A stretch of DNA of 64,000 nucleotides, from assembly GCA_963782055.1 (NCBI GenBank), contig CAWAIF010000003.1, positions 1,952,001 to 2,016,000 of the forward strand, in the 5' to 3' direction. The DNA is from an uncultured delta proteobacterium. Its GTDB lineage: Bacteria > Myxococcota_A > Polyangia > Polyangiales > Polyangiaceae. Numbering within the stretch: the stretch's first letter is position 1; each line of letters opens with the position of its first letter. The position numbers and the translations under genes were made by a program. This document shows positions 40,059-63,893 of this stretch, piece after piece. Under the pieces are notes generated by a model that ran no database searches, had not been told where the DNA came from, and worked only from the letters and a program-made list of their open reading frames with translations.

Positions 40059-40829
40059 ATGGCGAAGCGATTCGACGGGATGGTGGCGCTTGTCACCGGG
40101 GCGGCTCGAGGCATCGGCGCGGCGACGTGCCGGCGGCTCGGCGACGAGGGGGCGACGGTCTTCGCGTGCGACGTGCTGGACGAGGAGGGCGAGGCCATGG
40201 TCCGCGACATGACCGCGGGCGAGCGCGACGCCTTCTACCTCCACCTCGACGTCGCGGTGCAGAGCCAGTGGCAGGCGGTCGTGCAGCAGGTGGCCGCGCG
40301 CGCGGGACGTCTGGACGTCCTCGTCAACAACGCCGGGATCGCCCGGCTCGAGGACATCGAGCAGGAGACCGTGGAGGGCTTCGCGCACGTCATCGCGGTC
40401 AACGAGACGGGGGTGTGGCTGGGGATGAAGAGCGCGATGGCGATGCTCAAGCAGTCCGGCGGGAGCATCGTCAACGTCGCGTCCATCCTCGGCACGGTGG
40501 GCGGCAACGGCACCGCCATCGCCTACCAGGCGTCGAAGGGGGCCGTGCGGCTGATGACCAAGAACGCCGCCATCCGCTACGCCAAGGAGGGCGTGCGGGT
40601 GAACTCGGTGCACCCGGGCTACATCGAGACGCCGATGGTGGCGCCCTTCCTCTCCGGCGAGACGGAGGTCGCCACGCAGATGCGCGCGTACGTGGAGGCG
40701 ACCACGCCGATGGGGCGGCTCGGCCGCTCGGAGGAGGTCGCCGCGGCGATCGCCTTCCTGGCGAGCCGCGACGCGACCTACGTGACCGGCAGCGAGCTCT
40801 ACGTCGACGGCGGCTGGACCGCGTGGTGA
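40059..40829 (+). CDS. Short-chain dehydrogenase/reductase
   Basis: TGAARGIG, NNAG, YQASK, VNSVHPG, VDGG. Confidence 0.95.
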   Translation: MAKRFDGMVALVTGAARGIGAATCRRLGDEGATVFACDVLDEEGEAMVRDMTAGERDAFYLHLDVAVQSQWQAVVQQVAARAGRLDVLVNNAGIARLEDIEQETVEGFAHVIAVNETGVWLGMKSAMAMLKQSGGSIVNVASILGTVGGNGTAIAYQASKGAVRLMTKNAAIRYAKEGVRVNSVHPGYIETPMVAPFLSGETEVATQMRAYVEATTPMGRLGRSEEVAAAIAFLASRDATYVTGSELYVDGGWTAW

Positions 40830-40869
40830 GCGACGCGTCGGTGCGCGCCTCGTGTAGGATGCGCCCATG

Positions 40870-42906
40870 GTGCGCCGTGAAGAAGCAGGTCGTCCGTCGG
40901 GCATGCCCGACGAACGACCTGCCTCAAGCTGCGCTTCTCCAGCGGGTGAGAGTCCCGCACCGGTAAGCGTCGGAGCGCCGGGTAGCAGGCCCCAGCCGAG
41001 CGGGAGAGATCCCGTCGGCCGAGCGGGGCGTCGAAAGGGTCCACGGACCGAGCGAGCACGCGGGCCGCAACATGAAGTGAAGCTTGCAGCCTCGTCAGAT
41101 CTACAAACCGGGAGCCGAGCCGATCATGTCGCGGCGAAGGCAATATCGGCGGCGCCAGATCCGAAACGCGCCGTCGGTCCCGGCGGGGTAGGGAGCGCAG
41201 CACGCGTGCAAGGAGGAGTGCGGAACTCGGGAGGCCCGTCTGCGTCGCCCTCGTCGGGGCAAGGCGCGTCGTATAAGCCAGAGGCGAAGTCGGCCGCTGC
41301 GCAGCGGGAGTCCGAGGGGGTCACTGTACCGAAGAGCGAGGCGCGAGCTTCGCGAACGAACGCCGTGAAGAACAACGCGGCAGGAGGGAAAGACCCCTGC
41401 AGTGGTCGTGTCGGCGGAGCAGGTAAGCGCGAGGGCATGGCCGGCGAGACCGGTCCCAACCACCCCCATCGGCGACAGCCCATGGACAAAGTGCGACAAC
41501 TGCAACGCCGGCTGTGTGCCGCGGCCAAGCGGCATCCGGAGCGCCGATTCCACGCGCTGTATGACCGCATCGCGAGGCGTGACGTCCTCGCGGAAGCGTG
41601 GAAGCGGGTAAGGAGGAACAAGGGAGCCGCGGGCGTCGATGCCCAGACGATCGCGGCGCTCGAGGTGTACGGAGTGGATCGACTCCTCGGAGAGATCCAT
41701 GACGTGCTCCGTGCAGGCAGGTACCGGCCGGCAGCGGTGCTGCGCCGGTACATCCCGAAGGCCGATGGGAAGAAGCGGCCGCTTGGGATCCCGACGGTCC
41801 GAGACCGGGTGGTGCAGATGGCGACGAAGCTCGTGCTGGAGCCGATCTTCGAGGCGAGCTTTCGCTCGTGCTCGTACGGCTTCCGTATCGGGCGGAGCGC
41901 GACGGACGCCCTGGAGACGCTGAGGAAGCTCGGCGCGAAGGGGTACAACCACGTGCTCGACGCCGACATCCGTGACTACTTCGGGAGCATCGATCACGAC
42001 AAGCTGATGAAGCTCGTCGAGCGGCGCATCTCGGACCGGAGGGTGCTCAAGCTGCTGCGGCAGTGGCTCACGGCGGGGGTGATGGACGAAGGCACGGTGA
42101 CCAACCCCTCCAGCGGCACGCCGCAGGGCGGGGTGATCTCGCCGCTGCTCTCGAACATCTACCTCGCCGTGCTCGACGACGTGTGGACGAAGCGGTGCGC
42201 GCATCTTGGCGAGCTGGTTCGTTATGCGGACGACTTCGTCGTGATGTGCAGGACGAAGCGTGACGTCGACGAGGCCGAGCTTCGCGTGAAGCACGTGATG
42301 ACGCGACTCGGGCTCGAGCTGCACCCGGACAAGACGAGGAAGCTGGACCTCTCCTGGGGTAAGAAGGGGTTCGACTTCCTCGGCTGCCACCTGCGGAAAC
42401 GCTTGAGCGGGTCCATCTGGGAGAGGTCGCGCAAACGCGTGTACTTCCTCCAGCGCTGGCCATCGGCTCGCGCGATGAAGCGGATCCGGCAGCGCGTGAG
42501 GGACCTCACCCCGCGATCACGCTGCCACGCGGACCTGCGCGACGTCGTCGCGCAGCTCAACCCCGTGCTGCGTGGCTGGGGCGAGTACTTTCGCACCGGG
42601 AACGCCGACGTGAAGTTCAACCGACTCGACGAGTACGTGTACGAACGGCTTCGAGCGCTGCGCCTGAAACGGGCCGGCTCGAAGCTCAAGGCCGGACAAG
42701 CCGAGCGCTGGACCCGCGACTACTTCGTCGAAGGCTTCGGGCTCCACCGCCTGCGCGGGACCATCCGCTACCCGGAGGCCGCGTAATGCCGCGTCACGAG
42801 AGACCACCGGTAAGCCGTGTGCGGGAAATCCGCACGCACGGTTTGAGAGGGGGTCTTGACTCCAACCGCCGCCGTAGGGCGGCCAAGGTGTAAGGATCTA
42901 CCAATG
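40870..42906 (+). mobile_element. Group II intron copy 1 (RT-encoding, no endonuclease domain), inserted directly after a host ATG
   Basis: 5' GTGCG; GGTGAGAGTCC domain I motif; domain V AAGCCGTGTGCGGGAAATCCGCACGCACGGTTT at 42812-42844 (AGC triad); domain VI with bulged A42900. Ends defined by the repeat with copy 2. Confidence 0.95.
41482..42786 (+). CDS. ltrA: Group II intron reverse transcriptase/maturase (copy 1)
   Basis: NKGAAGVD, YIPK.DGKKRPLGIPTVRDRVVQ, SYGFR, DADIRDYF, GTPQGGVISPLLSNIYL, RYADD, FDFLG, LNPVLRGWGEYF; no C-terminal HNH. Alternative in-frame starts at 41437 and 40867. Confidence 0.97.
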   Translation: MDKVRQLQRRLCAAAKRHPERRFHALYDRIARRDVLAEAWKRVRRNKGAAGVDAQTIAALEVYGVDRLLGEIHDVLRAGRYRPAAVLRRYIPKADGKKRPLGIPTVRDRVVQMATKLVLEPIFEASFRSCSYGFRIGRSATDALETLRKLGAKGYNHVLDADIRDYFGSIDHDKLMKLVERRISDRRVLKLLRQWLTAGVMDEGTVTNPSSGTPQGGVISPLLSNIYLAVLDDVWTKRCAHLGELVRYADDFVVMCRTKRDVDEAELRVKHVMTRLGLELHPDKTRKLDLSWGKKGFDFLGCHLRKRLSGSIWERSRKRVYFLQRWPSARAMKRIRQRVRDLTPRSRCHADLRDVVAQLNPVLRGWGEYFRTGNADVKFNRLDEYVYERLRALRLKRAGSKLKAGQAERWTRDYFVEGFGLHRLRGTIRYPEAA

Positions 42907-43560
42907 TCGCACTGGGAGCACCGACCCGAGCCGAAGTGGCGTGAGTTCAAGTTCAACCAGCCGTACGCGAAGGGGCTGAAGCGCCTGCGCGAGGAGGTCC
43001 TCGCCAAGACCGACTTCGACCCCGCGACGCTCTGGCAGTGGGGGACGATGCAGGCGATGGCGCTGATCGAGGTGCTCAAGTCCTGCGAGGCGACCTTCGG
43101 CGCGGAGGGGCAGAAGCTGGTGCAGGACGCGCTCCATCGCGTCGGTCAGGACGTCGGCCGGCAGATCCTGGAGGGTGTGGAGATCCCAGACGACCTGACC
43201 GAGACCGAGTTCATCTCCTTCTACGCCACGGTCATCAACCGCATCCCGTACGCCTCGCTGGAGGCGCCGCGCATCGACGCCGAGGGCAAGGCGACCTTCG
43301 ACATCCTCTGGTGCCCGCACCAGGACCACTACGGCGCCTTCGACTGCCGCGTGCAGCGCTACTTCGTGCAGGGGATGATCGACGCCGCGCGCGAGCACGC
43401 CGCGGGCTTCGGCTTCGAGGTGCGCTTTGACACGACGATCCCGTCGGGGTCGCCGACGTGCCACTTCACGATGTGGAAGCCGACGGAGGAGGAGCGCGCC
43501 GCGTGGGAGGGCACGACGAAGCTGATCGAGGACAAGGCGCTCGCCCGCGCGAAGCGGTAG
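42904..43560 (+). CDS. Hypothetical protein, host of intron copy 1 (V4R/ATC-hydrolase-like Cys pattern); pre-insertion ATG at 40867
   Basis: MSHWEHRP...; WCPH...DC......GM...F.TTIPSG...CHF; ATG supplied by the intron 3' end. Confidence 0.8.
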   Translation: MSHWEHRPEPKWREFKFNQPYAKGLKRLREEVLAKTDFDPATLWQWGTMQAMALIEVLKSCEATFGAEGQKLVQDALHRVGQDVGRQILEGVEIPDDLTETEFISFYATVINRIPYASLEAPRIDAEGKATFDILWCPHQDHYGAFDCRVQRYFVQGMIDAAREHAAGFGFEVRFDTTIPSGSPTCHFTMWKPTEEERAAWEGTTKLIEDKALARAKR

Positions 43561-43563
43561 CGC

Positions 43564-45402
43564 TCAGTGCACCAGCCCCTGCCGGAATGCGTCCACGATC
43601 CCCGCGATCGCCGGGCGGTAGCCGTACAGCGGGTCGTTCGGCTGCGTCTCGGTGACGTGGATCGGGCAGATGGATGACACGCTCGCCTGTGCGCCCAGCG
43701 CGTGCGCCAGCGCCAGCTCGCGGATGGTGGGGTAGGCCTTGCCGCGGAGCTGGAGCGTCGGCGTCTTCTCGTCGCAGAGGGGGGAGCCGTGCGCCTTGTT
43801 CTGCGCGCAGTCGCACACCGCGCCCAGGTTGGGGTCGTTGCAGTCGCGCGGGGCGGCGAGCGGGAAGGTGCATGCAAACTGCAAGAACTGGCCACCGCTG
43901 TCCCACTCGCGGCCGTGGATGGGGTCCGCAGTGTCCGACGCGCTCGGCGGCGGCAGGCCGGGGCGCGGGGTGATGCTCTCCAGCATGTGCGGGTCCTCCC
44001 CGGTGAAGTCGTAGGCGAGGGGATCTTTGCCCAGGATCTTCTGCCAGTCGGCCTCGGTGAGGGTGTCCTTCTGCGGACTCTGGGGGTTCGTCGGGTCGAC
44101 CTGCAGGAGCTGGTGCGGCACGCCCCCGATGACGGCGAAGAAGACGAGCTTGGGCGAGCGCGGGCCCGGCGGGAGATTGCACAGCTCCTCGCTCGGCGTC
44201 GCCGGCAGCGCCCCGGCGAAGATGGGGTTGGTGCAGTTCTTCTGGCCGACGTAGTCGAAGGAGCCGCCCGGGTGCTCGCCCTCGCGGTCCGGCACCGTGG
44301 TCGACGTGAGGCCGTCGACGTAGCGCGAGAGCGGGTACTGCGGGTCCACGCCGAAGCGCTGCTTCAGGTGGAACATGCGCACGTTGGGCGGGTCCTCGCT
44401 GGAGGTGTAGAAGCCGCCGCCGATGGCGCAGTTGGGATCGCTCGATCCACCTGTGCACGGACGGCACTGGGGAGAGAGCGGGTCGGTCGCGCACGCGCTG
44501 GTAGGGCGCGGGTCGCCGCCGCCGGAGGAGCCGGGATAGGTGGAGTTGAGGTAGGCCCACGCGTGGCCGCCGAGGGCGCGCGGGTCGATCTGCGAGTCGT
44601 TCTCGTCGCTGACGACGATGACCCCGAGCAGGGAGTCGGGCCGAAGGAAGTCGTGGCGCTGCTGCAGGATGGTGGAGTCGACGCCGGAGAAGGTGGCGAT
44701 GTCGCCCTGCCGCACGATCTCGGCGTAGGGGTCGGGCTGCACCAGGAAGCGGTACCAGCTCTCGAGCTGGCCCTCGAAGCCACACCCGAACTCGCCCAGC
44801 CCGGTGACCAGATCCTGGAAGCGCGCGACGAGCTGCGCCGGGTCGGAGATGGCGGTGACCGGCGGCTTGGGGTTGCCCCTGTTGGCGTCCACGTCGGGGA
44901 ACCAGGCGAGGAAGTTGTCCGGCGAGGCCTCCGGCACGGCCTCGTCCTGCGGCGCCTTGCGGTTGACCAGGTGTCCCTGGTCGTCGTTGTGGCGCAGCAG
45001 GGCAGGGTTCTGCGGGTTGGGCGAGCCGGCGTCGCACTCGTCGGACCCCATGCCGCCGAGCGACGAGGTGACGATGGCGATGTGGATGTCGGGCACCGGC
45101 TTGAACTCCAGCTTGCCCACCTGGCACTTGCCGTCCACCGAGTCGCCGACGATGGCGTTGCTCGCGTCCACGCACTTCGGGCGGATGAGGCGGTCGAGCA
45201 GGTCCGGCACCGCCTGCCGCAGGAGCTCCTGCTTGTCCCCCATCGACCCCGAGTTGTCGATCATGAAGAGCAGGTCCACCTTGCCGCTCACCGAGAGCGG
45301 GCCGGCGTCGACCTCCGTCCTGTGATCCGGCGCGAGCAGGCCGGTGCGCGCACCGCACGCGACGACCAGCAAGGCCAACCCCACCACCAAGCCAAGGCGC
45401 AT
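43564..45402 (-). CDS. Myxobacterial Cys-rich lipoprotein with VWA-like domain
   Basis: Lipobox LVVAC; KVDLLFMIDNSGSMGDKQ, GCGFE.QLES, FLRPDSLLGVIVVSDEND. Confidence 0.8.
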   Translation of the reverse strand: MRLGLVVGLALLVVACGARTGLLAPDHRTEVDAGPLSVSGKVDLLFMIDNSGSMGDKQELLRQAVPDLLDRLIRPKCVDASNAIVGDSVDGKCQVGKLEFKPVPDIHIAIVTSSLGGMGSDECDAGSPNPQNPALLRHNDDQGHLVNRKAPQDEAVPEASPDNFLAWFPDVDANRGNPKPPVTAISDPAQLVARFQDLVTGLGEFGCGFEGQLESWYRFLVQPDPYAEIVRQGDIATFSGVDSTILQQRHDFLRPDSLLGVIVVSDENDSQIDPRALGGHAWAYLNSTYPGSSGGGDPRPTSACATDPLSPQCRPCTGGSSDPNCAIGGGFYTSSEDPPNVRMFHLKQRFGVDPQYPLSRYVDGLTSTTVPDREGEHPGGSFDYVGQKNCTNPIFAGALPATPSEELCNLPPGPRSPKLVFFAVIGGVPHQLLQVDPTNPQSPQKDTLTEADWQKILGKDPLAYDFTGEDPHMLESITPRPGLPPPSASDTADPIHGREWDSGGQFLQFACTFPLAAPRDCNDPNLGAVCDCAQNKAHGSPLCDEKTPTLQLRGKAYPTIRELALAHALGAQASVSSICPIHVTETQPNDPLYGYRPAIAGIVDAFRQGLVH

Positions 45403-45456
45403 GGGGATAGAGATGGCGCATGGGCGGCGGGGCGCAAGCCCAAAGCGCCGCCGCGG

Positions 45457-47643
45457 TCACTCGATGTCGTCCGGGCCGTCGTAGATCCCGTCGTCGTCCT
45501 CGCCGCTCCCGTCCTCGCTGCTGCGGTAGCGGTCGAGGAGATCGCGGTGATCCCGCGCGGCGGCGCCGCCCATGTCCTCCAGCGCATCGGCGGCGGCTCG
45601 CTTGACGTCGGCGGAGGCGTCGTCGCGCAGCAAGACGTCCACCAGGGCCGACTGCGCCTTGTCGTCGCCGAGCTGGGCCAGATACCGGATGCTGCTCTGT
45701 TGCACCTGGGGGTCGCTGTCCTTGACGCCCTCCAGCAGGACGCGCTCGTTGGCGTCGCCGCCGAGAGAGCTCGCGGTGGTCACCGCGGTGAGGCGCAGCG
45801 CCGGATCGTCGGAATGGATGTCGCGGTCGGCCGCGGCGGCGGCGCGCTCGGGGCTGGACTGCGCCAGCGCGTACATCGCGGCGCGCGAGACGTTGGGATC
45901 CTTGTCCAGGGCGAGCTGCTCGAGCTGGGAGGAGGCGGCGCCGCTGTGCACGCGCCCCAGGGAGCGGATGGAGGTGAGGCGCGTGGAGAGGTCGCTATCG
46001 TGCGTCCCGTCGATGAGGGCGCGCTCGGCGTCCGGGCCGCCCACCATCGCCAGGCCGTTCAGGGCGCTGCGTCGCACGCCCGCGTCCTTGTCGTGGAGCG
46101 CGGCCACGAACACCGGCGCCGTCTTGGGGTCGCCGCTGCCGCCCAGCGCGGTGAGGGCCTGCGCCCGTGTCGCCGGCTCGCCGGTGCGCGCCAGGTCCTC
46201 GACGGCCTGGATGGCGACCGCGTCGCCCTGCTGGATGAGCGCGTTCATCGCCTGCGTCCTCATCGTCTGGCCGCCGCCGCGCGCCACCTGGATCAGGGCG
46301 TCGCGCGCCTCCGGCGTGCCGTCCTGGGCGAGCAGGTTGAGCGCGACGGAGCCGCCGTCGCCCCCCTGGTCCCTGGCGAGGTCGATCGCGAGCTTGCGCG
46401 CCTCCTCCTTGCCGCCGGGCATACCCATGAGCTGCTGGAGCGCCGTCGCCTGCTGGGGACCGGACGCGCGCGCCACCCCGGCCACCGCGTCGCGCGCGGC
46501 GTCGCCGCCGATGTTCGCCAGGGCGTTCAGCGCGTTGCCCGCCGCGCCGGGCGAGCCGTGGCGCACCATGTCGGTGAGCGTGCCGACCGCGGAGGTGTCG
46601 TGGCGGTTGCCGAAGAAGTTGGCGGCGGTCGCGGCGATCTGCGCGTCGCTCGAGGACAGGCCTCGGATCATCGCGCCACGCACGTCGTCGCCGTCCAGCG
46701 TGGACATCGCCTGGAAGGCGTACAGGGACCTGTCGTGATCGGCGCCGCCGGCGATCTGCACCAGGAGCGCGCGCGAGGCGTCGTCGCCCACCCGGGCGAG
46801 AGCGTTGGTAGCGACGGCCACCTCGCCGCGGGTGCCGTGCTGCGCGGCGTCGCCGAGCACCTGCACCGCCGCCGCGCCGCCGAGGTCTCCCAGCGCGCGC
46901 AGGGCGGACTGGCGCGCCTCGGCGGTGCCGCCCTTCGCCACGGCGCAGAGCACGGGTACCGCTGCGGCGTCGTGGGTGGCGCCGAGGGCGGCGATGAGCT
47001 CCGCCTGCGACTCGCCGGTCTCGGTCTTCAGCGCGTCCTCGATGAGGCCGGACGCCTCCGCCACGTGCGCGTTGCCCAGGGCGAGCAGGGCGGCGAGCCG
47101 CGTGTCGTGGTCCCCCGTCTTCGCGGCGGTGAGGACCATCTGGTGCGCCTCGGGGTCGTCCAGCGACGCCAGGGAGGCCAGAGCGGCGTCGCGGACATCG
47201 GGGTTCTTGTCGCCGATGAGCTCGCCCAGCCAGCTCTTGGCGGCGCCGTTGTGGACCTGACCGAGGGCGGTGGCCGCGCATAGGCGGACGGGCTGCGGCT
47301 GCTTCGCGTCCGTCCGATCGGTGATGGCGCTGGTGGCCTCCTGATCGTCGGTGGCGTTGGGCGCCAGGGCGTAGAGCGCATCGCACACCTTCGACGGGGA
47401 GCGGGCCGCGCGCAGCGCCTCGACCTGGGTGCCGACGTGGGCGGCGGGCGTGTCGTCCTGCGTGGCGTCTCCGGCGCCGAAGAAGCCGAACCATCCCCCG
47501 CCGCTCTTCGCCCGTACATGTGGGGAAGAGGACGCCTTGGTGCCCGCCCCGGCGTGGGCGTGGTCCTTCGCCGGGTGCAGGGCGAAGAAGGCAGCGGCCC
47601 CCACGGCGGCGAACGTCGAGATTTTCCAGGCGCGGGTGCCCAT
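45457..47643 (-). CDS. HEAT-repeat protein with N-terminal hydrophobic anchor
   Basis: Many L.D.D..VR..A..AL repeats; acidic C-terminus. Confidence 0.85.
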   Translation of the reverse strand: MGTRAWKISTFAAVGAAAFFALHPAKDHAHAGAGTKASSSPHVRAKSGGGWFGFFGAGDATQDDTPAAHVGTQVEALRAARSPSKVCDALYALAPNATDDQEATSAITDRTDAKQPQPVRLCAATALGQVHNGAAKSWLGELIGDKNPDVRDAALASLASLDDPEAHQMVLTAAKTGDHDTRLAALLALGNAHVAEASGLIEDALKTETGESQAELIAALGATHDAAAVPVLCAVAKGGTAEARQSALRALGDLGGAAAVQVLGDAAQHGTRGEVAVATNALARVGDDASRALLVQIAGGADHDRSLYAFQAMSTLDGDDVRGAMIRGLSSSDAQIAATAANFFGNRHDTSAVGTLTDMVRHGSPGAAGNALNALANIGGDAARDAVAGVARASGPQQATALQQLMGMPGGKEEARKLAIDLARDQGGDGGSVALNLLAQDGTPEARDALIQVARGGGQTMRTQAMNALIQQGDAVAIQAVEDLARTGEPATRAQALTALGGSGDPKTAPVFVAALHDKDAGVRRSALNGLAMVGGPDAERALIDGTHDSDLSTRLTSIRSLGRVHSGAASSQLEQLALDKDPNVSRAAMYALAQSSPERAAAAADRDIHSDDPALRLTAVTTASSLGGDANERVLLEGVKDSDPQVQQSSIRYLAQLGDDKAQSALVDVLLRDDASADVKRAAADALEDMGGAAARDHRDLLDRYRSSEDGSGEDDDGIYDGPDDIE

Positions 47644-47814
47644 CGTTCTCCGTACGGTCGTACGCTCGGCGAAGATCTCTTCTTCCGCCGGCGTCAGGCG
47701 ATCGAGAGGACAGCAGACGGCCCGCCGGGTTCCCGGACGCTCCTCCTTTGACCACACGCCGGGCGCCGGCTTGGACCTCCCCGTCGCCGGCGGGAGCGGC
47801 TACCCTGGGCTGGA

Positions 47815-48375
47815 ATGGATGCGATGGGTGGCGAGCGAGGGGCAGAGCGCCGCACGACCCGTGGGGTGCGCTTCGTGCCCCTCATCGAGATGCCCTGCAT
47901 GGTCTCCGGCATCTGGCGCCGCTTCGGTGTCCACGTCTTCGAGGGCAAGGTCACCCTGGAGGACATGGCCCGCATCGAGCAGGCGAGCGAAGCGTGGCAC
48001 GCCAAGATCCCCGGCAAGCTGGTGGAGCTGGTGGTCGTCATCCCCAGCGGCGCCAAGATGACGAGCGACGAGCGCAAGAAGATGGCGCACATCATCCGCC
48101 GCTGGGAGAACACGCGGACCGCCTCCGCCACGGTGATCCTCGCGCAGGGCCTCGTGGGCGCCATGCACCGCAGCGTCCTCACCGGGATGCAGATGCTCGC
48201 CCCCGCGCCCCACCCGCAGTCGGTGTTCGGCAACGTGCCCGACGCCCTGCTCTGGCTTTGCCCACATGTACGTGACGCGTGCCAGGCCGCCGTCGAGCCG
48301 GAGGACCTGGTGGCGGGCGTCGACGCGCTGACCGAGAGCTTCGCCGCGCGCCCCGAGAAGGCCCCGCTGGTCTAG
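47815..48375 (+). CDS. Hypothetical protein (STAS/SEC14-like small domain)
   Basis: ATVILAQGLVGAMHRSVLTGM...P.P..VF.....A..WL pattern. Start uncertain. Confidence 0.6.
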   Translation: MDAMGGERGAERRTTRGVRFVPLIEMPCMVSGIWRRFGVHVFEGKVTLEDMARIEQASEAWHAKIPGKLVELVVVIPSGAKMTSDERKKMAHIIRRWENTRTASATVILAQGLVGAMHRSVLTGMQMLAPAPHPQSVFGNVPDALLWLCPHVRDACQAAVEPEDLVAGVDALTESFAARPEKAPLV

Positions 48376-48446
48376 GTCGTTCCTTGCTCCAGCCCCGCGG
48401 ATGTGCTGGGCTTGATGAGGGCACCAATCTCAGCAGGAGGGCTGCC

Positions 48447-50528
48447 GTGAAAGTCACCAGTAGCGTGCTCGTCGTGGCGTTCTTGGCCGCGTTCGGAGCG
48501 GCGGTCGCCTGCGGCGACAGCGGGAACGGTTTCATTCCTGACGGCGGGGATCTGGACGCCACCGCGGGCGACGCCAGCGACGACTCGCCGGGCTTCAACA
48601 ACCAGCCCGACGCCTCGGCGGGCCTGGTGGTCCAGCCGCCCACGGCGACGCTCGTCTACAACGGCTCTCCCGTCACGCAGCAGTTCACCGCGCTGTCGAA
48701 CAACCAGCCGCTCGCCGGCGTGCAGTGGTCGATCGACAACTTCGCGCTGGGCACCATCGACTCCAGCGGCCTGTTCACGGCCTCCGGCACCGTGGGCGGC
48801 ACCGGTCACGTCACCGCGGTCAAGGGCAACGCCAGCGGGTCCGCGACGATCCTGGTGCAGGTGCAGCTCTCGGCGAACCCGGGCAACGTCCCGAGCGGCG
48901 TCATCAGCCAGCTCAAGGGCGGCGGCAGCGCCGACTCGGCCTTCAAGTGGCTCTACCCCTACGACAAGACCCTCTGGCCGCGCGGGCTCACCGGCCCGCT
49001 CCTGCAGTTCGGCGGCTCGGCGATGCAGTACGCGTGGCTGCACGTGGAGACAGCCTCGAAGTCCATCGTCTACGACGGCTACTACGGCGCGGCCAGCCCG
49101 GCGCGGCTGGATCTCTCGAGCGACCCGATCTGGACGACCATCGGCAACTCCGCCGGGCCGAACGACGCGGTCAGCGTCAGCGTCACCAAGATGTCCGGCG
49201 GCCAGGTGACCGGGCCGATCAAGGAGACGTGGACCTTCGCGCAGGGCTCGCTCAAGGGCACCGTCTACTACAACTCGTACGACTCCAAGCTGGGCAACGG
49301 CTACGGCGCGGTGCTCAAGTTCAAGCCCGGCAACGGCAACACCGCGCAGCTCCTGGTGGGCGGCACGAGCAGCAAGTGCACGGTGTGCCACACGGTCAGC
49401 TCCAACGGCAACGTGATGATCGCCGCGAACAGCACGTACGACACCGGCGCCCGTTACGACCTGCAGAACAACGCCGCCCAGAGCCAGGGCCGCAACGACT
49501 ACGTCTACAACTTCCCGGCGCTCAACCCGGACGGCAGCGTCGTCGTCTCCACCACCAGCGACAAGATCGGCGGCATGTGGTCGTCGGCCGCGTCCCACGT
49601 CTACGACGGCTCGGGCGCGCAGATGAACGGCACCGGCTTCGAGTCGCTCGTCTCCTACGCGGCCATGCCGGCGTTCTCGGCCGACGGCAAGCTGCTCGCC
49701 TTCAACAACGAGCACCAGCCCGCGATGAACGGCGCCAGCCCCAACAACGAGATCGACGTCCTCTCCTTCGACCCCAACGCGAAGAAGTTCTCCAACCTGG
49801 TGAAGCTGGTGAGCGACGCCAACGCGAGCAACCTGCTCGGCTGGCCCTCCTTCACGCCCGACGGCAAGCTCGTCGTCTACGACCACCACCAGGGCACCAA
49901 CTCGGAGGGCACCAACTACGGCACCTGGGGCGCGCAGCGCTCGGTGCTGGAGATGGTCGACGTCTCCTCGAAGACCGTCTACCCGATCAACGCTCTCAAC
50001 GGCCTGGATGGCAGCAACCAGCCGTACCTCCCCTTCGGCGCGGACGACGAGAACCGCAACTTCGAGCCGAACGTGCTGCCGCTCGCGGCGGGCGGGTACT
50101 TCTGGGTCGTGTTCACCAGCCGCCGCCAGTACGGCAACACCATCAACTCGGCGGAGACGGGCGCGTACGGCCAGGACATCCGCAAGAAGCTCTGGGTCGC
50201 GGCGATCGACATCAACCCGACGCCTGGCACCGACCCGAGCCACGCGGCCTTCTACCTGCCGGGCCAGGAGGTCACCGCGGGCAACATGCGCGGCTTCTGG
50301 GTGCTCGACCCGTGCAAGCAGAACGGCAACTCGTGCGAGTCCGGCGACGAGTGCTGCGGCGGCTTCTGCCGTCAGGTCGCGGGGCCGGATGGCGGCGTCG
50401 AGAACGTGTGCGTGCCGCCGCCCAACGGCTGCTCGCACGAGTTCGAGAAGTGCACCACCGCGGCCGACTGCTGCGACCCGGGTGATCAGTGCATCAACGG
50501 CTTCTGCGCCATCCCCCCGCCGAAGTGA
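48447..50528 (+). CDS. Lipoprotein with Ig-like domain, TolB/PD40-like propeller and Cys-rich C-terminus
   Basis: SD AGGAGG plus GTG; lipobox AAVAC; PAFSADGK, PSFTPDGK, WVVFTSRRQYGN, KKLWVAAID; C-terminal C..CC..C repeats. Confidence 0.85.
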   Translation: MKVTSSVLVVAFLAAFGAAVACGDSGNGFIPDGGDLDATAGDASDDSPGFNNQPDASAGLVVQPPTATLVYNGSPVTQQFTALSNNQPLAGVQWSIDNFALGTIDSSGLFTASGTVGGTGHVTAVKGNASGSATILVQVQLSANPGNVPSGVISQLKGGGSADSAFKWLYPYDKTLWPRGLTGPLLQFGGSAMQYAWLHVETASKSIVYDGYYGAASPARLDLSSDPIWTTIGNSAGPNDAVSVSVTKMSGGQVTGPIKETWTFAQGSLKGTVYYNSYDSKLGNGYGAVLKFKPGNGNTAQLLVGGTSSKCTVCHTVSSNGNVMIAANSTYDTGARYDLQNNAAQSQGRNDYVYNFPALNPDGSVVVSTTSDKIGGMWSSAASHVYDGSGAQMNGTGFESLVSYAAMPAFSADGKLLAFNNEHQPAMNGASPNNEIDVLSFDPNAKKFSNLVKLVSDANASNLLGWPSFTPDGKLVVYDHHQGTNSEGTNYGTWGAQRSVLEMVDVSSKTVYPINALNGLDGSNQPYLPFGADDENRNFEPNVLPLAAGGYFWVVFTSRRQYGNTINSAETGAYGQDIRKKLWVAAIDINPTPGTDPSHAAFYLPGQEVTAGNMRGFWVLDPCKQNGNSCESGDECCGGFCRQVAGPDGGVENVCVPPPNGCSHEFEKCTTAADCCDPGDQCINGFCAIPPPK

Positions 50529-50591
50529 CGGGGACCCCCTCTCTGGCACACGCTGGCACGCGCCATCCCCCAGCAAGCCCGCACTTCGCGC

Positions 50592-50607
50592 TGGCACGTA
50601 GCCTGCT
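50592..50607 (+). promoter_or_regulatory. Sigma54 (-24/-12) promoter candidate directly upstream of intron copy 2 and its host ATG
   Basis: TGGCACG-TAGC-CTGCT with GG at 50593-50594 and GC at 50605-50606; predicted +1 near 50618, ATG at 50621. Confidence 0.65.
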
Positions 50608-50623
50608 AACGGTCGTGCCCATG

Positions 50624-52660
50624 GTGCGCCGTGAAGAAGCAGGTCGTCCGTCGGGCATGCCCGACGAACGACCTGCCTCAAGCTGCGCTTCTCCAGCGGG
50701 TGAGAGTCCCGCACCGGTAAGCGTCGGAGCGCCGGGTAGCAGGCCCCAGCCGAGCGGGAGAGATCCCGTCGGCCGAGCGGGGCGTCGAAAGGGTCCACGG
50801 ACCGAGCGAGCACGCGGGCCGCAACATGAAGTGAAGCTTGCAGCCTCGTCAGATCTACAAACCGGGAGCCGAGCCGATCATGTCGCGGCGAAGGCAATAT
50901 CGGCGGCGCCAGATCCGAAACGCGCCGTCGGTCCCGGCGGGGTAGGGAGCGCAGCACGCGTGCAAGGAGGAGTGCGGAACTCGGGAGGCCCGTCTGCGTC
51001 GCCCTCGTCGGGGCAAGGCGCGTCGTATAAGCCAGAGGCGAAGTCGGCCGCTGCGCAGCGGGAGTCCGAGGGGGTCACTGTACCGAAGAGCGAGGCGCGA
51101 GCTTCGCGAACGAACGCCGTGAAGAACAACGCGGCAGGAGGGAAAGACCCCTGCAGTGGTCGTGTCGGCGGAGCAGGTAAGCGCGAGGGCATGGCCGGCG
51201 AGACCGGTCCCAACCACCCCCATCGGCGACAGCCCATGGACAAAGTGCGACAACTGCAACGCCGGCTGTGTGCCGCGGCCAAGCGGCATCCGGAGCGCCG
51301 ATTCCACGCGCTGTATGACCGCATCGCGAGGCGTGACGTCCTCGCGGAAGCGTGGAAGCGGGTAAGGAGGAACAAGGGAGCCGCGGGCGTCGATGCCCAG
51401 ACGATCGCGGCGCTCGAGGTGTACGGAGTGGATCGACTCCTCGGAGAGATCCATGACGTGCTCCGTGCAGGCAGGTACCGGCCGGCAGCGGTGCTGCGCC
51501 GGTACATCCCGAAGGCCGATGGGAAGAAGCGGCCGCTTGGGATCCCGACGGTCCGAGACCGGGTGGTGCAGATGGCGACGAAGCTCGTGCTGGAGCCGAT
51601 CTTCGAGGCGAGCTTTCGCTCGTGCTCGTACGGCTTCCGTATCGGGCGGAGCGCGACGGACGCCCTGGAGACGCTGAGGAAGCTCGGCGCGAAGGGGTAC
51701 AACCACGTGCTCGACGCCGACATCCGTGACTACTTCGGGAGCATCGATCACGACAAGCTGATGAAGCTCGTCGAGCGGCGCATCTCGGACCGGAGGGTGC
51801 TCAAGCTGCTGCGGCAGTGGCTCACGGCGGGGGTGATGGACGAAGGCACGGTGACCAACCCCTCCAGCGGCACGCCGCAGGGCGGGGTGATCTCGCCGCT
51901 GCTCTCGAACATCTACCTCGCCGTGCTCGACGACGTGTGGACGAAGCGGTGCGCGCATCTTGGCGAGCTGGTTCGTTATGCGGACGACTTCGTCGTGATG
52001 TGCAGGACGAAGCGTGACGTCGACGAGGCCGAGCTTCGCGTGAAGCACGTGATGACGCGACTCGGGCTCGAGCTGCACCCGGACAAGACGAGGAAGCTGG
52101 ACCTCTCCTGGGGTAAGAAGGGGTTCGACTTCCTCGGCTGCCACCTGCGGAAACGCTTGAGCGGGTCCATCTGGGAGAGGTCGCGCAAACGCGTGTACTT
52201 CCTCCAGCGCTGGCCATCGGCTCGCGCGATGAAGCGGATCCGGCAGCGCGTGAGGGACCTCACCCCGCGATCACGCTGCCACGCGGACCTGCGCGACGTC
52301 GTCGCGCAGCTCAACCCCGTGCTGCGTGGCTGGGGCGAGTACTTTCGCACCGGGAACGCCGACGTGAAGTTCAACCGACTCGACGAGTACGTGTACGAAC
52401 GGCTTCGAGCGCTGCGCCTGAAACGGGCCGGCTCGAAGCTCAAGGCCGGACAAGCCGAGCGCTGGACCCGCGACTACTTCGTCGAAGGCTTCGGGCTCCA
52501 CCGCCTGCGCGGGACCATCCGCTACCCGGAGGCCGCGTAATGCCGCGTCACGAGAGACCACCGGTAAGCCGTGTGCGGGAAATCCGCACGCACGGTTTGA
52601 GAGGGGGTCTTGACTCCAACCGCCGCCGTAGGGCGGCCAAGGTGTAAGGATCTACCAATG
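50624..52660 (+). mobile_element. Group II intron copy 2, direct repeat of 40870-42906 (offset 9,754)
   Basis: Same 5' GTGCG, domain V (52566-52598), domain VI and 3' CTACCAATG; ORF-track translations match copy 1. Confidence 0.95.
51236..52540 (+). CDS. ltrA: Group II intron reverse transcriptase/maturase (copy 2)
   Basis: Translation identical to copy 1 (YADD, PQG, maturase X domain). Confidence 0.97.
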   Translation: MDKVRQLQRRLCAAAKRHPERRFHALYDRIARRDVLAEAWKRVRRNKGAAGVDAQTIAALEVYGVDRLLGEIHDVLRAGRYRPAAVLRRYIPKADGKKRPLGIPTVRDRVVQMATKLVLEPIFEASFRSCSYGFRIGRSATDALETLRKLGAKGYNHVLDADIRDYFGSIDHDKLMKLVERRISDRRVLKLLRQWLTAGVMDEGTVTNPSSGTPQGGVISPLLSNIYLAVLDDVWTKRCAHLGELVRYADDFVVMCRTKRDVDEAELRVKHVMTRLGLELHPDKTRKLDLSWGKKGFDFLGCHLRKRLSGSIWERSRKRVYFLQRWPSARAMKRIRQRVRDLTPRSRCHADLRDVVAQLNPVLRGWGEYFRTGNADVKFNRLDEYVYERLRALRLKRAGSKLKAGQAERWTRDYFVEGFGLHRLRGTIRYPEAA

Positions 52661-53068
52661 CGCTCCCTTCTCCTCGCTCTCCTCTCGGCGTCCTCCCTCG
52701 CGCTCGGCGCATGCGGCGGCGTGGCCGTGGACACCTCCTCCGACGCCGGCGCGGGCGCGGACGGCGGTCACGACGCCGCGACCTCCCCCGTCACGTGTCA
52801 GGGCAAGACGTGCGGCGCGGGGGAGGTGTGCGTGGTCACCACCTCCGGCGGCGGCCCGTGCCTCCTGCCTGACGACGCGGGGGTCTGTCCCGACGGCACC
52901 CACACCACCGGCTGCTGCGACAACACGACCACCGGCTACGCGTGCAAGCCGCTCCCCGCCGCATGCAAGGGCAGCCTCGCGTGCCCGTGCGCGGACACGC
53001 TCTGCCAGTGCGGCGGCTGCCAGGTCGCCGACGCGGGCGTGCTCGCGTGCCAGTGCCTGTATCCCTGA
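52658..53068 (+). CDS. Small Cys-rich lipoprotein, host of intron copy 2; pre-insertion ATG at 50621
   Basis: MRSLLLALLSASSLALGAC lipoprotein signal begins exactly at the intron-terminal ATG; many Cys residues. Confidence 0.85.
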   Translation: MRSLLLALLSASSLALGACGGVAVDTSSDAGAGADGGHDAATSPVTCQGKTCGAGEVCVVTTSGGGPCLLPDDAGVCPDGTHTTGCCDNTTTGYACKPLPAACKGSLACPCADTLCQCGGCQVADAGVLACQCLYP

Positions 53069-63820: not shown

Positions 63821-63893
63821 GGGGCCGTAGCTCAGCTGGGAGAGCGCATCCATGGCATGGATGAGGTCAGGGGTTCGATCCCCCTCGGCTCCA
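63821..63893 (+). tRNA. tRNA-Ala (GGC)
   Basis: Acceptor stem GGGGCCG/CGGCTCC with G3:U70; D-arm GCTCAGCTGGGAGAGC; anticodon stem CATCC/GGATG with loop ATGGCAT; T-loop TTCGATC. CCA is not encoded. TAGATT -10-like hexamer at 63792. Confidence 0.97.

What the first reader, a model, noticed from the sequence alone, without database searches (positions are those of the whole stretch)
41119..41135. Candidate EBS1 loop reads CATG, complementary to the start-codon target
Seen: stem GCCG (41119-41122) / CGGC (41132-41135) closes loop ATCATGTCG within GAGCCGAGCC...GGCGAAGGC, the context where the EBS1 hairpin normally lies. CATG (41125-41128; 50879-50882 in copy 2) pairs with the exon-terminal CATG at both sites. 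Inference: a short EBS1-IBS1 pairing explains ATG specificity and places the 5' splice site after the G of ATG. Four bases are too few for specificity, so another cue (transcription start, open complex, RT preference) is probably needed.
Basis: partly seen in the sequence, partly recalled or inferred. Interest (0 to 1): 0.7.

Follow-up and report, generated by a model that had tools for sequence, protein, structure and literature searches.

The report
Start-codon-reading loop of a mobile intron
The flagged hairpin is the exon-binding loop of a mobile group II intron: its bases CAUG pair with the host's C+ATG, so the intron lands just behind the start codon of genes that lack a leader and appears to borrow their promoter and start codon.

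Summary
The stem and loop sit exactly where stated in both window copies of a 2037-nt group II intron whose reverse transcriptase (RT) has no endonuclease (En) domain. The genome holds nine copies.

- **EBS1 pairing.** Across relatives from many phyla, loop base 4 pairs with exon -4 in 62 of 66 loci. Loop base 3 pairs with the first start-codon base in 68 of 68; all five CAC loops sit at GTG starts. Pairing does not extend to -5/-6, and there is no EBS2.
- **EBS3.** G41191 pairs with the first base after the intron's terminal AUG in 62 of 66. This fixes both splice sites, so only 5 bp are read.
It is visible as context. Seven of nine own sites and 47 of 51 relatives have TANNNT 6-8 nt before the start codon, against 1.0% of all CATG. 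These are leaderless genes.
- **Why ATG.** The RT frame runs open from the host ATG in 53 of 68 relatives, and the RT has no conserved start codon of its own.
- **Replication.** Copies are co-oriented with replication: 9 of 9 here and 15 of 15 in Nannocystis punicea.

How the promoter context is sensed is not shown. This scan met the same lineage before on other DNA. I found no description of it in print.

The parts
40855..40860 (+). -10-like box TAGGAT of host gene 1, 6 nt before its ATG
   Evidence: Genome-wide, TANNNT peaks 6-9 nt before ATG.
40866..40869 (+). IBS1 of copy 1: C + start codon ATG (40867-40869), the last bases of the 5' exon
   Evidence: covariation.
40870..42906 (+). Group II intron copy 1, 2037 nt, GUGCG...CUACCAAUG
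   Evidence: Rfam hits; nine genomic copies; boundaries fixed by EBS1 and EBS3 covariation.
40882..40925 (+). Perfect 44-nt hairpin near the intron 5' end; variable in length and sequence in relatives
   Evidence: Self-complementary hits; alignment A1 columns 25-75.
41114..41141 (+). EBS1 hairpin: GCC / GA / GCCG, loop AUCAUGUCG, CGGC / GAA / GGC
   Evidence: Rfam D1D4-6 structure; stems 99-100% paired, with compensatory changes.
41125..41128 (+). EBS1 proper, CAUG
41191..41191 (+). EBS3 (G in GGGGUA-G-GG), pairs with the first base of the 3' exon
   Evidence: 94% paired, MI 1.31 bits; 62 of 66. Own genome: +1 is C in 7 and T in 1 of 8 sites, against 31% C among unoccupied candidates.
40867..42786 (+). 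Open frame of 639 codons from the host ATG through domains I-III into the RT; the conserved RT/maturase part is 41482-42786
   Evidence: ORF 40867..42786; TIGR04416 at 411.5 bits; frame conservation; no conserved internal start codon.
42812..42844 (+). Domain V
   Evidence: Rfam RF00029 alignment; fold.
42849..42906 (+). Domain VI with the likely branch A at 42900, seventh base from the 3' end
   Evidence: Rfam RF00029. The fold gives the G42851-U42857 / A42893-U42899 helix. The bulged A and the GG/CC pairs are my reading, not the minimum-energy fold.
42892..42896 (+). Shine-Dalgarno-like AAGGA, 7 nt before the intron's terminal AUG (lies in the 3' strand of domain VI)
   Evidence: An SD-like 4-mer ends 7 nt before the terminal start codon in 49 of 79 relatives.
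42904..42906 (+). The intron's last three bases, AUG, in frame with host gene 1
   Evidence: Constant in all copies that keep the 3' end, even where the exon start codon is GTG. ATG in 73 and GTG in 6 of 79 relatives.
42907..43560 (+). 3' exon: host gene 1 from codon 2 (S-H-W-E-H-R-P...); 42907 is IBS3
   Evidence: intron-free orthologues begin M-A/P-H-W.
50620..50623 (+). IBS1 of copy 2 (CATG). The box upstream is only a near match: AACGGT at spacer 7, or TAACGG at spacer 8 (50607-50613).
50624..52660 (+). Group II intron copy 2, identical to copy 1
50879..50882 (+). EBS1 of copy 2 (hairpin 50868-50895; EBS3 at 50945)
   Evidence: offset of 9754 from copy 1.
52661..53068 (+). 3' exon of copy 2: lipoprotein-like gene from codon 2 (M|RSLLLALLSASSLALGACGG); 52661 C is IBS3

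Best explanation
The hairpin at 41114-41141 is the EBS1 stem-loop of an En-less group II intron. Its four bases CAUG (41125-41128) pair with the sense-strand bases C-A/G-T-G that end the 5' exon, that is, the base before the start codon plus the start codon. One further base, EBS3 (G41191), pairs with the first base of codon 2. There is no EBS2, so only 5 bp are read by the RNA.

The intron therefore inserts exactly between codon 1 and codon 2, and it does so only at genes whose -10 box lies 6-8 nt before the start codon (leaderless genes). There it gains a promoter and a 5'-terminal AUG. Its RT has no start codon of its own and is read in frame from the host AUG through ribozyme domains I-III. 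The intron's own last three bases are a spare AUG/GUG, often behind an SD-like AGGA, which could keep the host gene translatable without splicing.

Shown by sequence comparison: the EBS1 and EBS3 pairings, both splice sites, the target context, the conserved frame, and co-orientation with replication.

Inferred: the RNP reverse-splices into the sense strand when it is single-stranded, and an Okazaki fragment primes cDNA synthesis, as in other En-less introns. I also infer that CATG|Y is accessible only where it lies in the transcription bubble of a leaderless promoter. I favour that cue at about 0.4. Direct reading of the -10 box by the RNP, or selection alone, remain open.
For: - **EBS1.** Rfam places a domain I hairpin here. 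IBS1-EBS1 is 98.6% paired, with 14 and 2 double changes, and 0 of 500 shuffles reach the observed scores. Pairing holds at 62 of 66 (-4) and 68 of 68 (-3), and all 5 CAC loops sit at GTG starts.
- **EBS3.** Column 41191 is 94% paired against 58% for the next best column, and 62 of 66. In the own genome +1 is C in 7 and T in 1 of 8 sites, against 31% C and 11% T in 389 unoccupied candidates.
- **No EBS2.** Nine near-identical copies have unrelated bases at -5 to -12, and columns -5/-6 are only 46% paired.
- **Target context.** TANNNT at spacer 6-8 occurs in 7 of 9 own sites and 47 of 51 relatives, against 473 of 46,635 CATG sites. Genome-wide there is a spacer peak at 6-9, with 73-80% of those sites followed by ORFs of at least 100 codons, against 40% of all ATG. 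All 7 orthologues are intron-free and start at the same ATG, and 6 of them have an nAnnnT box 6-7 nt upstream.
- **Frame.** The window ORF is 40867..42786. The RT is in frame with zero stops over 549-672 nt in 53 of 68 relatives, while the other two frames are open in 0 of 68. The codon aligned to RT Met1 is ATG in 2 and GTG in 1 of 76.
- **Replication.** Own + copies lie at 1.99-3.17 Mb and - copies at 4.46-6.98 Mb of C3. The GC-skew maximum is at 3.5 Mb and dnaA is on another contig. Only 41% of 152 candidate sites are so oriented. In N. punicea 15 of 15 copies are co-oriented with respect to dnaA at 12.49 Mb.
Against: - Four of 66 loci mismatch at -4 and 4 of 66 at EBS3. L098 adds one further -4 mismatch in A1.
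- Two of the nine own sites, including window copy 2, lack a strict TANNNT.
- A strict sigma-70 consensus scan found 0 promoters in 40400-50700.
- No transcription start, spliced junction or lariat was seen.
- The intron ends in UG rather than the usual AY, and nine actinobacterial loci plus L067 start U(U/C)GCG.
- A 3-nt RNA 5' exon may be too short for exon ligation.
- Fifteen of 68 relatives are out of frame or carry stops.
- N. pusilla has one fragment in the opposite orientation.
- The bubble model rests on no direct evidence.
Confidence: 0.85

Rival explanations
1. The CAUG in the loop matches the exon by chance, and the real EBS1 lies elsewhere in domain I.
For: Four bases in a 9-nt loop match by chance about 2% of the time (my estimate). 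CATG is its own reverse complement.
Against: Covariation at two positions. The helix register is unique: sliding the partner by 1-3 columns drops pairing to 24-41%. Rfam's domain I model places a hairpin here.
Confidence: 0.02
2. The splice sites are shifted by one or two bases (intron GGUGCG...CCAAU, a canonical AU end). The loop would then pair partly with the intron's own first base.
For: The TG repeated at both junctions makes the DNA ambiguous by 2 nt. The end would then be the usual AY. The subclade starting U(U/C)GCG would regain a 5' G; there EBS3 = C could pair either with +1 G or with the G of the terminal AUG.
Against: EBS3 covaries with the base after the terminal AUG through all four bases (G:C 25, C:G 17, U:A 16, A:U 3). 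That could not happen if IBS3 were the invariant G. The branch A is then 7 nt from the end, as in the Rfam consensus.
Confidence: 0.05
3. The intron inserts at any single-stranded CATG|Y. Only copies behind leaderless start codons survive or go on to copy themselves, so the promoter context reflects selection, not targeting.
For: Only such copies get a promoter and a start codon for the RT, and only they leave the host gene translatable. Insertions inside genes would be harmful.
Against: Neutral intergenic CATG|Y sites should then hold dead copies, but none was seen: 0 of 9 own copies and 0 of the 51 relatives with readable flanks. Some of those relatives have already lost the frame. The own copies are 99.9-100% identical, so they are recent.
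Confidence: 0.15
4. The intron RNP itself (RT or RNA) reads T-A-n-n-n-T on the single-stranded sense strand at the replication fork, without RNA polymerase.
For: The conserved bases are those of the non-template -10 element. The strand bias points to the lagging-strand template as substrate.
Against: The spacer varies between 6 and 8 nt (30, 10 and 7 of 47). The middle three bases vary among targets of identical copies, so RNA pairing is excluded. The 434-aa RT has no DNA-binding or En domain: TIGR04416 covers residues 34-397.
Confidence: 0.2
5. The loop has a second partner: it also pairs with the intron's own terminal AUG/GUG, which mimics IBS1.
For: Terminal GUG occurs in 3 of 5 introns with a CAC loop but in only 3 of 69 with a CAU loop.
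Against: Two CAC introns (L039, L040) end in AUG, a C-A mismatch. Both triplets are start codons, which the spare-start-codon reading explains equally well.
Confidence: 0.12

Closest known systems
Group IIC (bacterial class C) introns, e.g. B.h.I1, O.i.I1, GsI-IIC
   Same: En-less RT. Very short EBS1, EBS3 present, no EBS2. The base-paired target is too short to be specific, so a non-sequence cue is needed. Primed at replication forks (passages of PMC4424553 and PMC3753933). The nearest solved RT is GsI-IIC (E 2.8e-57).
   Different: IIC introns land after terminator hairpins or attC sites, outside genes. This lineage lands between codons 1 and 2 of leaderless genes, has its RT in frame with the host AUG, and ends in AUG. 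Class membership was not tested by phylogeny.
Specialised subgroup IIB1 / CL1 clade at start or stop codons (Avi.groEL, EcKTE56.groEL; Michel et al. 2007, as described in Gomes et al. 2025, PMC12584367)
   Same: Association with initiation codons. An extra element near the 5' end of domain I. How the codon is found is stated there to be unknown.
   Different: That clade has an En domain, canonical EBS1/EBS2/EBS2a pairings and a 300-700 nt subdomain Ia. It sits in housekeeping genes of proteobacteria. Here there is no En domain, only 4+1 bp are read, the extra element is a 44-nt hairpin, the genes are diverse and the hosts span many phyla. I could not read Michel et al. 2007 itself.
RmInt1 (class D, Sinorhizobium meliloti)
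   Same: En-less. Reverse-splices into the lagging-strand template at replication forks (abstract of PMC8914252 in the listing).
   Different: RmInt1 homes to a long EBS1/EBS2-defined site in an insertion sequence and has its own translation signals (recalled).
Yeast mitochondrial introns aI1/aI2 (recalled, not checked here)
   Same: The intron-encoded RT is translated in frame with the upstream exon.
   Different: They are organellar and En-containing, with long upstream exons and no link to a transcription start.

Membership tests
Group II intron (mobile, RT-encoding) | Domain V/VI and domain I ribozyme structure | tested here: met
   RF00029 44.3 bits, RF02003 77.1 bits, RF02005 55.8 bits, all above the gathering scores.
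Group II intron (mobile, RT-encoding) | RT/maturase ORF in domain IV | tested here: met
   TIGR04416 411.5 bits against a cut-off of 300.
Group II intron (mobile, RT-encoding) | 5' GUGYG and 3' AY termini | tested here: inconclusive
   The 5' end GUGCG is met. The 3' end is UG, not AY. Ten relatives start U(U/C)GCG and two start GAGCG.
Group II intron (mobile, RT-encoding) | EBS1-IBS1 pairing that defines the 5' splice site | tested here: met
   4 bp with covariation.
Group IIC / class C | Short EBS1, EBS3, no EBS2, En-less RT | tested here: met
Group IIC / class C | Insertion after a terminator stem-loop or attC site | tested here: not met
   All 9 own sites and 51 of 51 readable relatives follow a start codon. 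No terminator-like site lies before either window copy.
Group IIC / class C | RT groups with class C in a phylogeny | not tested
   Only a ranking against solved structures. No reference set of classified RTs was to hand.
IIB1/CL1 start/stop-codon clade (Michel 2007) | CL1 RT with a C-terminal En domain | tested here: not met
   434 aa; the family model covers residues 34-397 and nothing follows.
IIB1/CL1 start/stop-codon clade (Michel 2007) | 300-700 nt subdomain Ia | tested here: not met
   The insertion is a 44-nt hairpin, 40882-40925; it spans about 20-50 nt in relatives.
IIB1/CL1 start/stop-codon clade (Michel 2007) | Canonical EBS2-IBS2 pairing | tested here: not met
   Identical copies have unrelated -5 to -12 bases.
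IIB1/CL1 start/stop-codon clade (Michel 2007) | Sits at an initiation or termination codon | tested here: met

The most novel reading that the evidence does not exclude
This lineage has a fourth kind of group II intron target choice, besides homing sites, terminators and attC sites. The RNP finds its 5-base target only where the sense strand is held open in the transcription bubble of a leaderless promoter. Transcription initiation itself would then mark the landing site. The intron captures the promoter and the start codon for its own reverse transcriptase, and gives the host gene a spare start codon in return.
Probability: 0.35. Interest if true: 0.9.

Novelty: new variant of a known kind. 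Interest (0 to 1): 0.75.

Why it matters
- **Target choice.** A 2015 review counts three target specificities for bacterial group II introns: homing sites, terminators and attC sites (PMC4424553). A 2025 paper says that how introns colonise start or stop codons is unknown (PMC12584367).
- **A workable code.** Here the recognition code is read directly from covariation: 4 + 1 base pairs plus a promoter-proximal context. It holds in a lineage found in many phyla that reaches about 50 copies in one genome.
- **Testable question.** It makes a long-standing question testable: what does a retroelement with almost no sequence specificity use as its address?
- **Practical uses.** The lineage is a natural marker for leaderless gene starts. 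It may also offer a compact, En-less targeting scaffold in which 5 programmable bases suffice.

Tried and rejected
- **Longer EBS1.** Extending the pairing to -5/-6 gives only 46% paired, so I rejected it.
- **Delta-type pairing.** Pairing of the base 5' of EBS1 with +1 is rejected: that base is U in most introns, while +1 is most often C.
- **EBS3 in the first 330 nt.** No column paired better than 56% there. It was found only after the alignment was extended to 650 nt.
- **Terminal triplet pairing with EBS1.** Mixed result: 3 GUG and 2 AUG among the 5 CAC introns.
- **RNA libraries.** Runs X1, X2 and X4 each gave contigs 100% identical to 40929/40933-42837/42852. All lie inside the intron, with no exon cover, no joints and no ends, so they say nothing about splicing, the transcription start or even transcription itself.
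- **Strict sigma-70 scan.** 0 hits. It requires a -35 match, which these promoters may lack.
- **Literature.** Seven searches, with passages of PMC4748821, PMC4424553, PMC3753933, PMC12584367, PMC9294222, PMC7306698 and PMC3552965, turned up no description of leaderless or start-codon targeting by an En-less lineage. Michel et al. 2007 (Biochimie) is not in the library and Simon et al. 2008 is not held. Either could bear on priority.
- **Classification.** Assignment to classes A-F was not attempted, for lack of reference sequences.
- **Rows left out.**
  - A1 uses 51 of the 80 loci plus the window: those with a boundary [AG]TG|GTG[CT]G and at least 12 nt of exon.
  - The tallies use pattern matches. 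Five loci gave no hairpin match (L064, L065, L073, L078, L098), and L054 had no 3' end.
  - Loci cut by contig ends lack exon bases.
Full report
**Observation.** GCCG (41119-41122) and CGGC (41132-41135) close the loop AUCAUGUCG, with CATG at 41125-41128 and at 50879-50882 in the second copy. Rfam finds two identical group II introns in the window. The hits are domain I-IV models RF02003 and RF02005 and the domain V/VI model RF00029, all above their gathering scores. The RF02005 alignment places 41114-41141 on a modelled hairpin with a 9-nt loop.

**The element.**
- The intron runs from 40870 (GUGCG) to 42906 (...CUACCAAUG) and again from 50624 to 52660. Each copy is 2037 nt.
- The genome holds nine copies: seven full-length at 99.95-100% identity, one cut at its 3' end, and one split into two pieces.
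- Eight 5' exons end in CATG and one in CGTG. The 3' end is AATG wherever it is present.
- Downstream reading frames, several with signal peptides, continue from that ATG.
- The exon's first start-codon base varies among identical copies while the 3' triplet does not. The 5' triplet therefore belongs to the target and the 3' triplet to the intron. DNA comparison alone leaves a 2-nt (TG) ambiguity in the boundaries.

**Test of EBS1.**
- A protein-guided scan returned 80 related loci, with RTs 56-90% identical, from Myxococcota, Acidobacteriota, Planctomycetota, Actinomycetota, several proteobacterial groups and others. 577 stretches encoded a relative and the best 80 were kept.
- On alignment A1 (the window plus the 51 loci with a clear boundary and at least 12 nt of exon), the four proposed pairs are 98.6% paired.
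  - Exon -4 with loop base 4 gives C:G 35, G:U 9, G:C 4, A:U 1 and 3 unpaired.
  - Exon -3 with loop base 3 gives A:U 49, G:C 2, G:U 1.
  - The hairpin stems are 99-100% paired, with compensatory changes.
  - No shuffle in 500 reaches the observed scores, and sliding the partner gives 24-41% paired.
  - Extending the helix to -5/-6 gives 46%.
- A wider pattern-based tally gives 62 of 66 paired at -4 and 68 of 68 at -3. All five introns whose loop reads CAC sit behind GTG start codons.
- Within one genome, intron variants with loop CAUC and CAUG sit behind G-ATG and C-ATG respectively (L059, L060, L071 against L069, L070).
- The loop is therefore EBS1, and it reads four bases.

**EBS3 and the splice sites.**
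- Scanning every column of the non-coding intron parts against the first base after the terminal AUG gave one outlier, window position 41191. It is 94% paired with MI 1.31 bits; the next best column reaches 58%.
- The tally is G:C 25, C:G 17, U:A 16, A:U 3 and U:G 1, with 4 mismatches out of 66.
- In this genome EBS3 is G. The eight readable 3' exons begin with C seven times and T once. Among 389 unoccupied candidate sites, 31% begin with C and 11% with T.
- This fixes the 3' splice site after AAUG. Ligation must restore the frame, so the 5' splice site lies after the start codon.
- Seven orthologues of host gene 1 in other genomes are uninterrupted and begin ATG-GCx/CCG-CAC-TGG at the same place.
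- The likely branch A (42900) is then seventh from the end, as in the Rfam consensus.
- Identical copies have unrelated bases at -5 to -12, so there is no EBS2.

**Target context.**
- Five base pairs cannot give specificity. The genome has 46,635 CATG sites, and only 473 (1.0%) have TANNNT 6-8 nt upstream.
- Seven of the nine insertion sites have such a box. The other two are near matches: AACGGT/TAACGG at window copy 2, and TAGGGC.
- Among relatives, 47 of 51 readable flanks have it, at spacer 6 in 30, spacer 7 in 10 and spacer 8 in 7. The other four are near matches.
- Genome-wide, TANNNT upstream of ATG peaks sharply at spacers 6-9 (392, 302, 224 and 243 sites, against about 100 elsewhere). 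Of those sites, 73-80% are followed by at least 100 open codons, against 40% of all ATG. This is the signature of leaderless genes.
- Six of the seven orthologues of host gene 1 keep an nAnnnT box 6-7 nt upstream. The most distant one has GGAGG instead.
- A strict sigma-70 scan that also requires a -35 match found nothing. No transcription start was mapped.

**Why ATG.**
In the window the frame is open from 40867 to the RT stop at 42786, 639 codons.
- In 53 of 68 relatives the RT is in frame with the host start codon with no stop across 549-672 nt of ribozyme. The other two frames are open in 0 of 68, with 1-12 stops each.
- The codon aligned with the window RT's first Met is ATG in 2 and GTG in 1 of 76 relatives. 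The lineage therefore has no start codon of its own for the RT.
- The intron thus needs an in-frame start codon directly before it, which is what EBS1 = CAUG delivers.
- Its last three bases are ATG in 73 and GTG in 6 of 79 relatives. An SD-like 4-mer ends 7 nt before them in 49 of 79. That would let the host gene be translated from unspliced RNA. This is inference.

**Replication.**
- In contig C3 the five + copies lie at 1.99-3.17 Mb and the four - copies at 4.46-6.98 Mb.
- Cumulative GC skew peaks at 3.5 Mb and dnaA lies on another contig. All nine copies therefore point the way the fork moves.
- Only 41% of 152 candidate sites are so oriented.
- In the complete Nannocystis punicea chromosome, dnaA is at 12.49 Mb. 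Six of six copies in one replichore are + and nine of nine in the other are -.
- N. pusilla has one oppositely oriented fragment.
- The sense strand is thus the lagging-strand template, as described for other En-less introns (abstract of PMC8914252 in the listing; passage of PMC4424553).

**Mechanism.**
- Shown: the RNA reads C-R-T-G|N by 4 + 1 pairs, the sites are leaderless starts, the RT depends on the host AUG, and the copies follow replication.
- Inferred: reverse splicing into single-stranded sense DNA, with priming by an Okazaki fragment.
- The cue that restricts insertion to leaderless starts is open. I favour the transcription bubble, which exposes positions -1 to +4 of the sense strand only at such promoters (about 0.4).
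- The alternatives are direct reading of the -10 bases by the RNP (about 0.2) and selection alone (about 0.15). Selection alone is weakened by the absence of any copy at a neutral CATG|Y site.

**Comparison with known systems.**
- The element works most like group IIC introns: a short EBS1, EBS3, no EBS2, no En domain, and reliance on an extra cue. It fails their defining insertion after terminators.
- It shares start-codon association with the IIB1/CL1 clade described by Michel et al. 2007, as summarised in PMC12584367. It lacks that clade's En domain, long pairings and 300-700 nt subdomain Ia.
- Searches of the held library found no description of this lineage. The 2007 paper itself could not be read.
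- Four earlier notes of this scan reported the same lineage on other DNA.

**Limits.** There are no data on RNA ends or splicing: the RNA-library contigs lie inside the intron. The RT was not placed in a class by phylogeny. Pattern-based tallies omit loci cut by contig ends or with divergent motifs.

Noticed in passing
L080-L085, L093, L096, L097 (Actinomycetota) and L067; L039, L040: After the host start codon these introns begin T(T/C)GCG, or GAGCG in L039/L040, instead of GTGCG. Either the universal first G is replaced, or the splice sites are shifted by one base in these sublineages. In the T(T/C)GCG loci EBS3 = C fits both readings.
   Followed up: partly
G044 (genome of L059), contigs C1, C2, C4: One Vicinamibacterales genome gave 55 RT matches at E <= 1e-30, about 50 of them at 67-69% identity to the window RT. 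That is a very large burst. At least two EBS1/EBS3 variants coexist (CAUC/U and CAUG/G), each at matching targets.
   Followed up: partly
own genome C3:2503251-2504075 (+) and C3:2517652-2518302 (-), outside the window: One intron copy, the only one behind a GTG start, is split into two pieces that are inverted relative to each other and about 13.6 kb apart. AAA+ (DnaA-model 140-246) matches flank the break at 2504274-2504588 and 2520224-2520538. This suggests that another mobile element inserted and rearranged it.
   Followed up: no
window 40882-40925 and 50636-50679: A perfect 44-nt hairpin sits 12 nt into the intron. In relatives it varies in length and sequence but remains a hairpin. It lies where the start/stop-codon IIB1 clade carries its large subdomain Ia, and it is translated as part of the RT's leader peptide.
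   Followed up: no
window 40929-42852: Contigs 100% identical to the intron interior occur in several small soil metatranscriptome libraries and in soil DNA runs. The flanking host genes were not covered.
   Followed up: partly
L030, L080, L091 against L039, L040: Introns whose EBS1 reads CAC (GTG-start specialists) end in GUG three times out of five. Those with CAU do so 3 times out of 69. This link between EBS1 and the intron's last triplet is unexplained.
   Followed up: partly
window 63821-63893: A tRNA gene (Rfam RF00005, 61 bits), unrelated to the finding.
   Followed up: no
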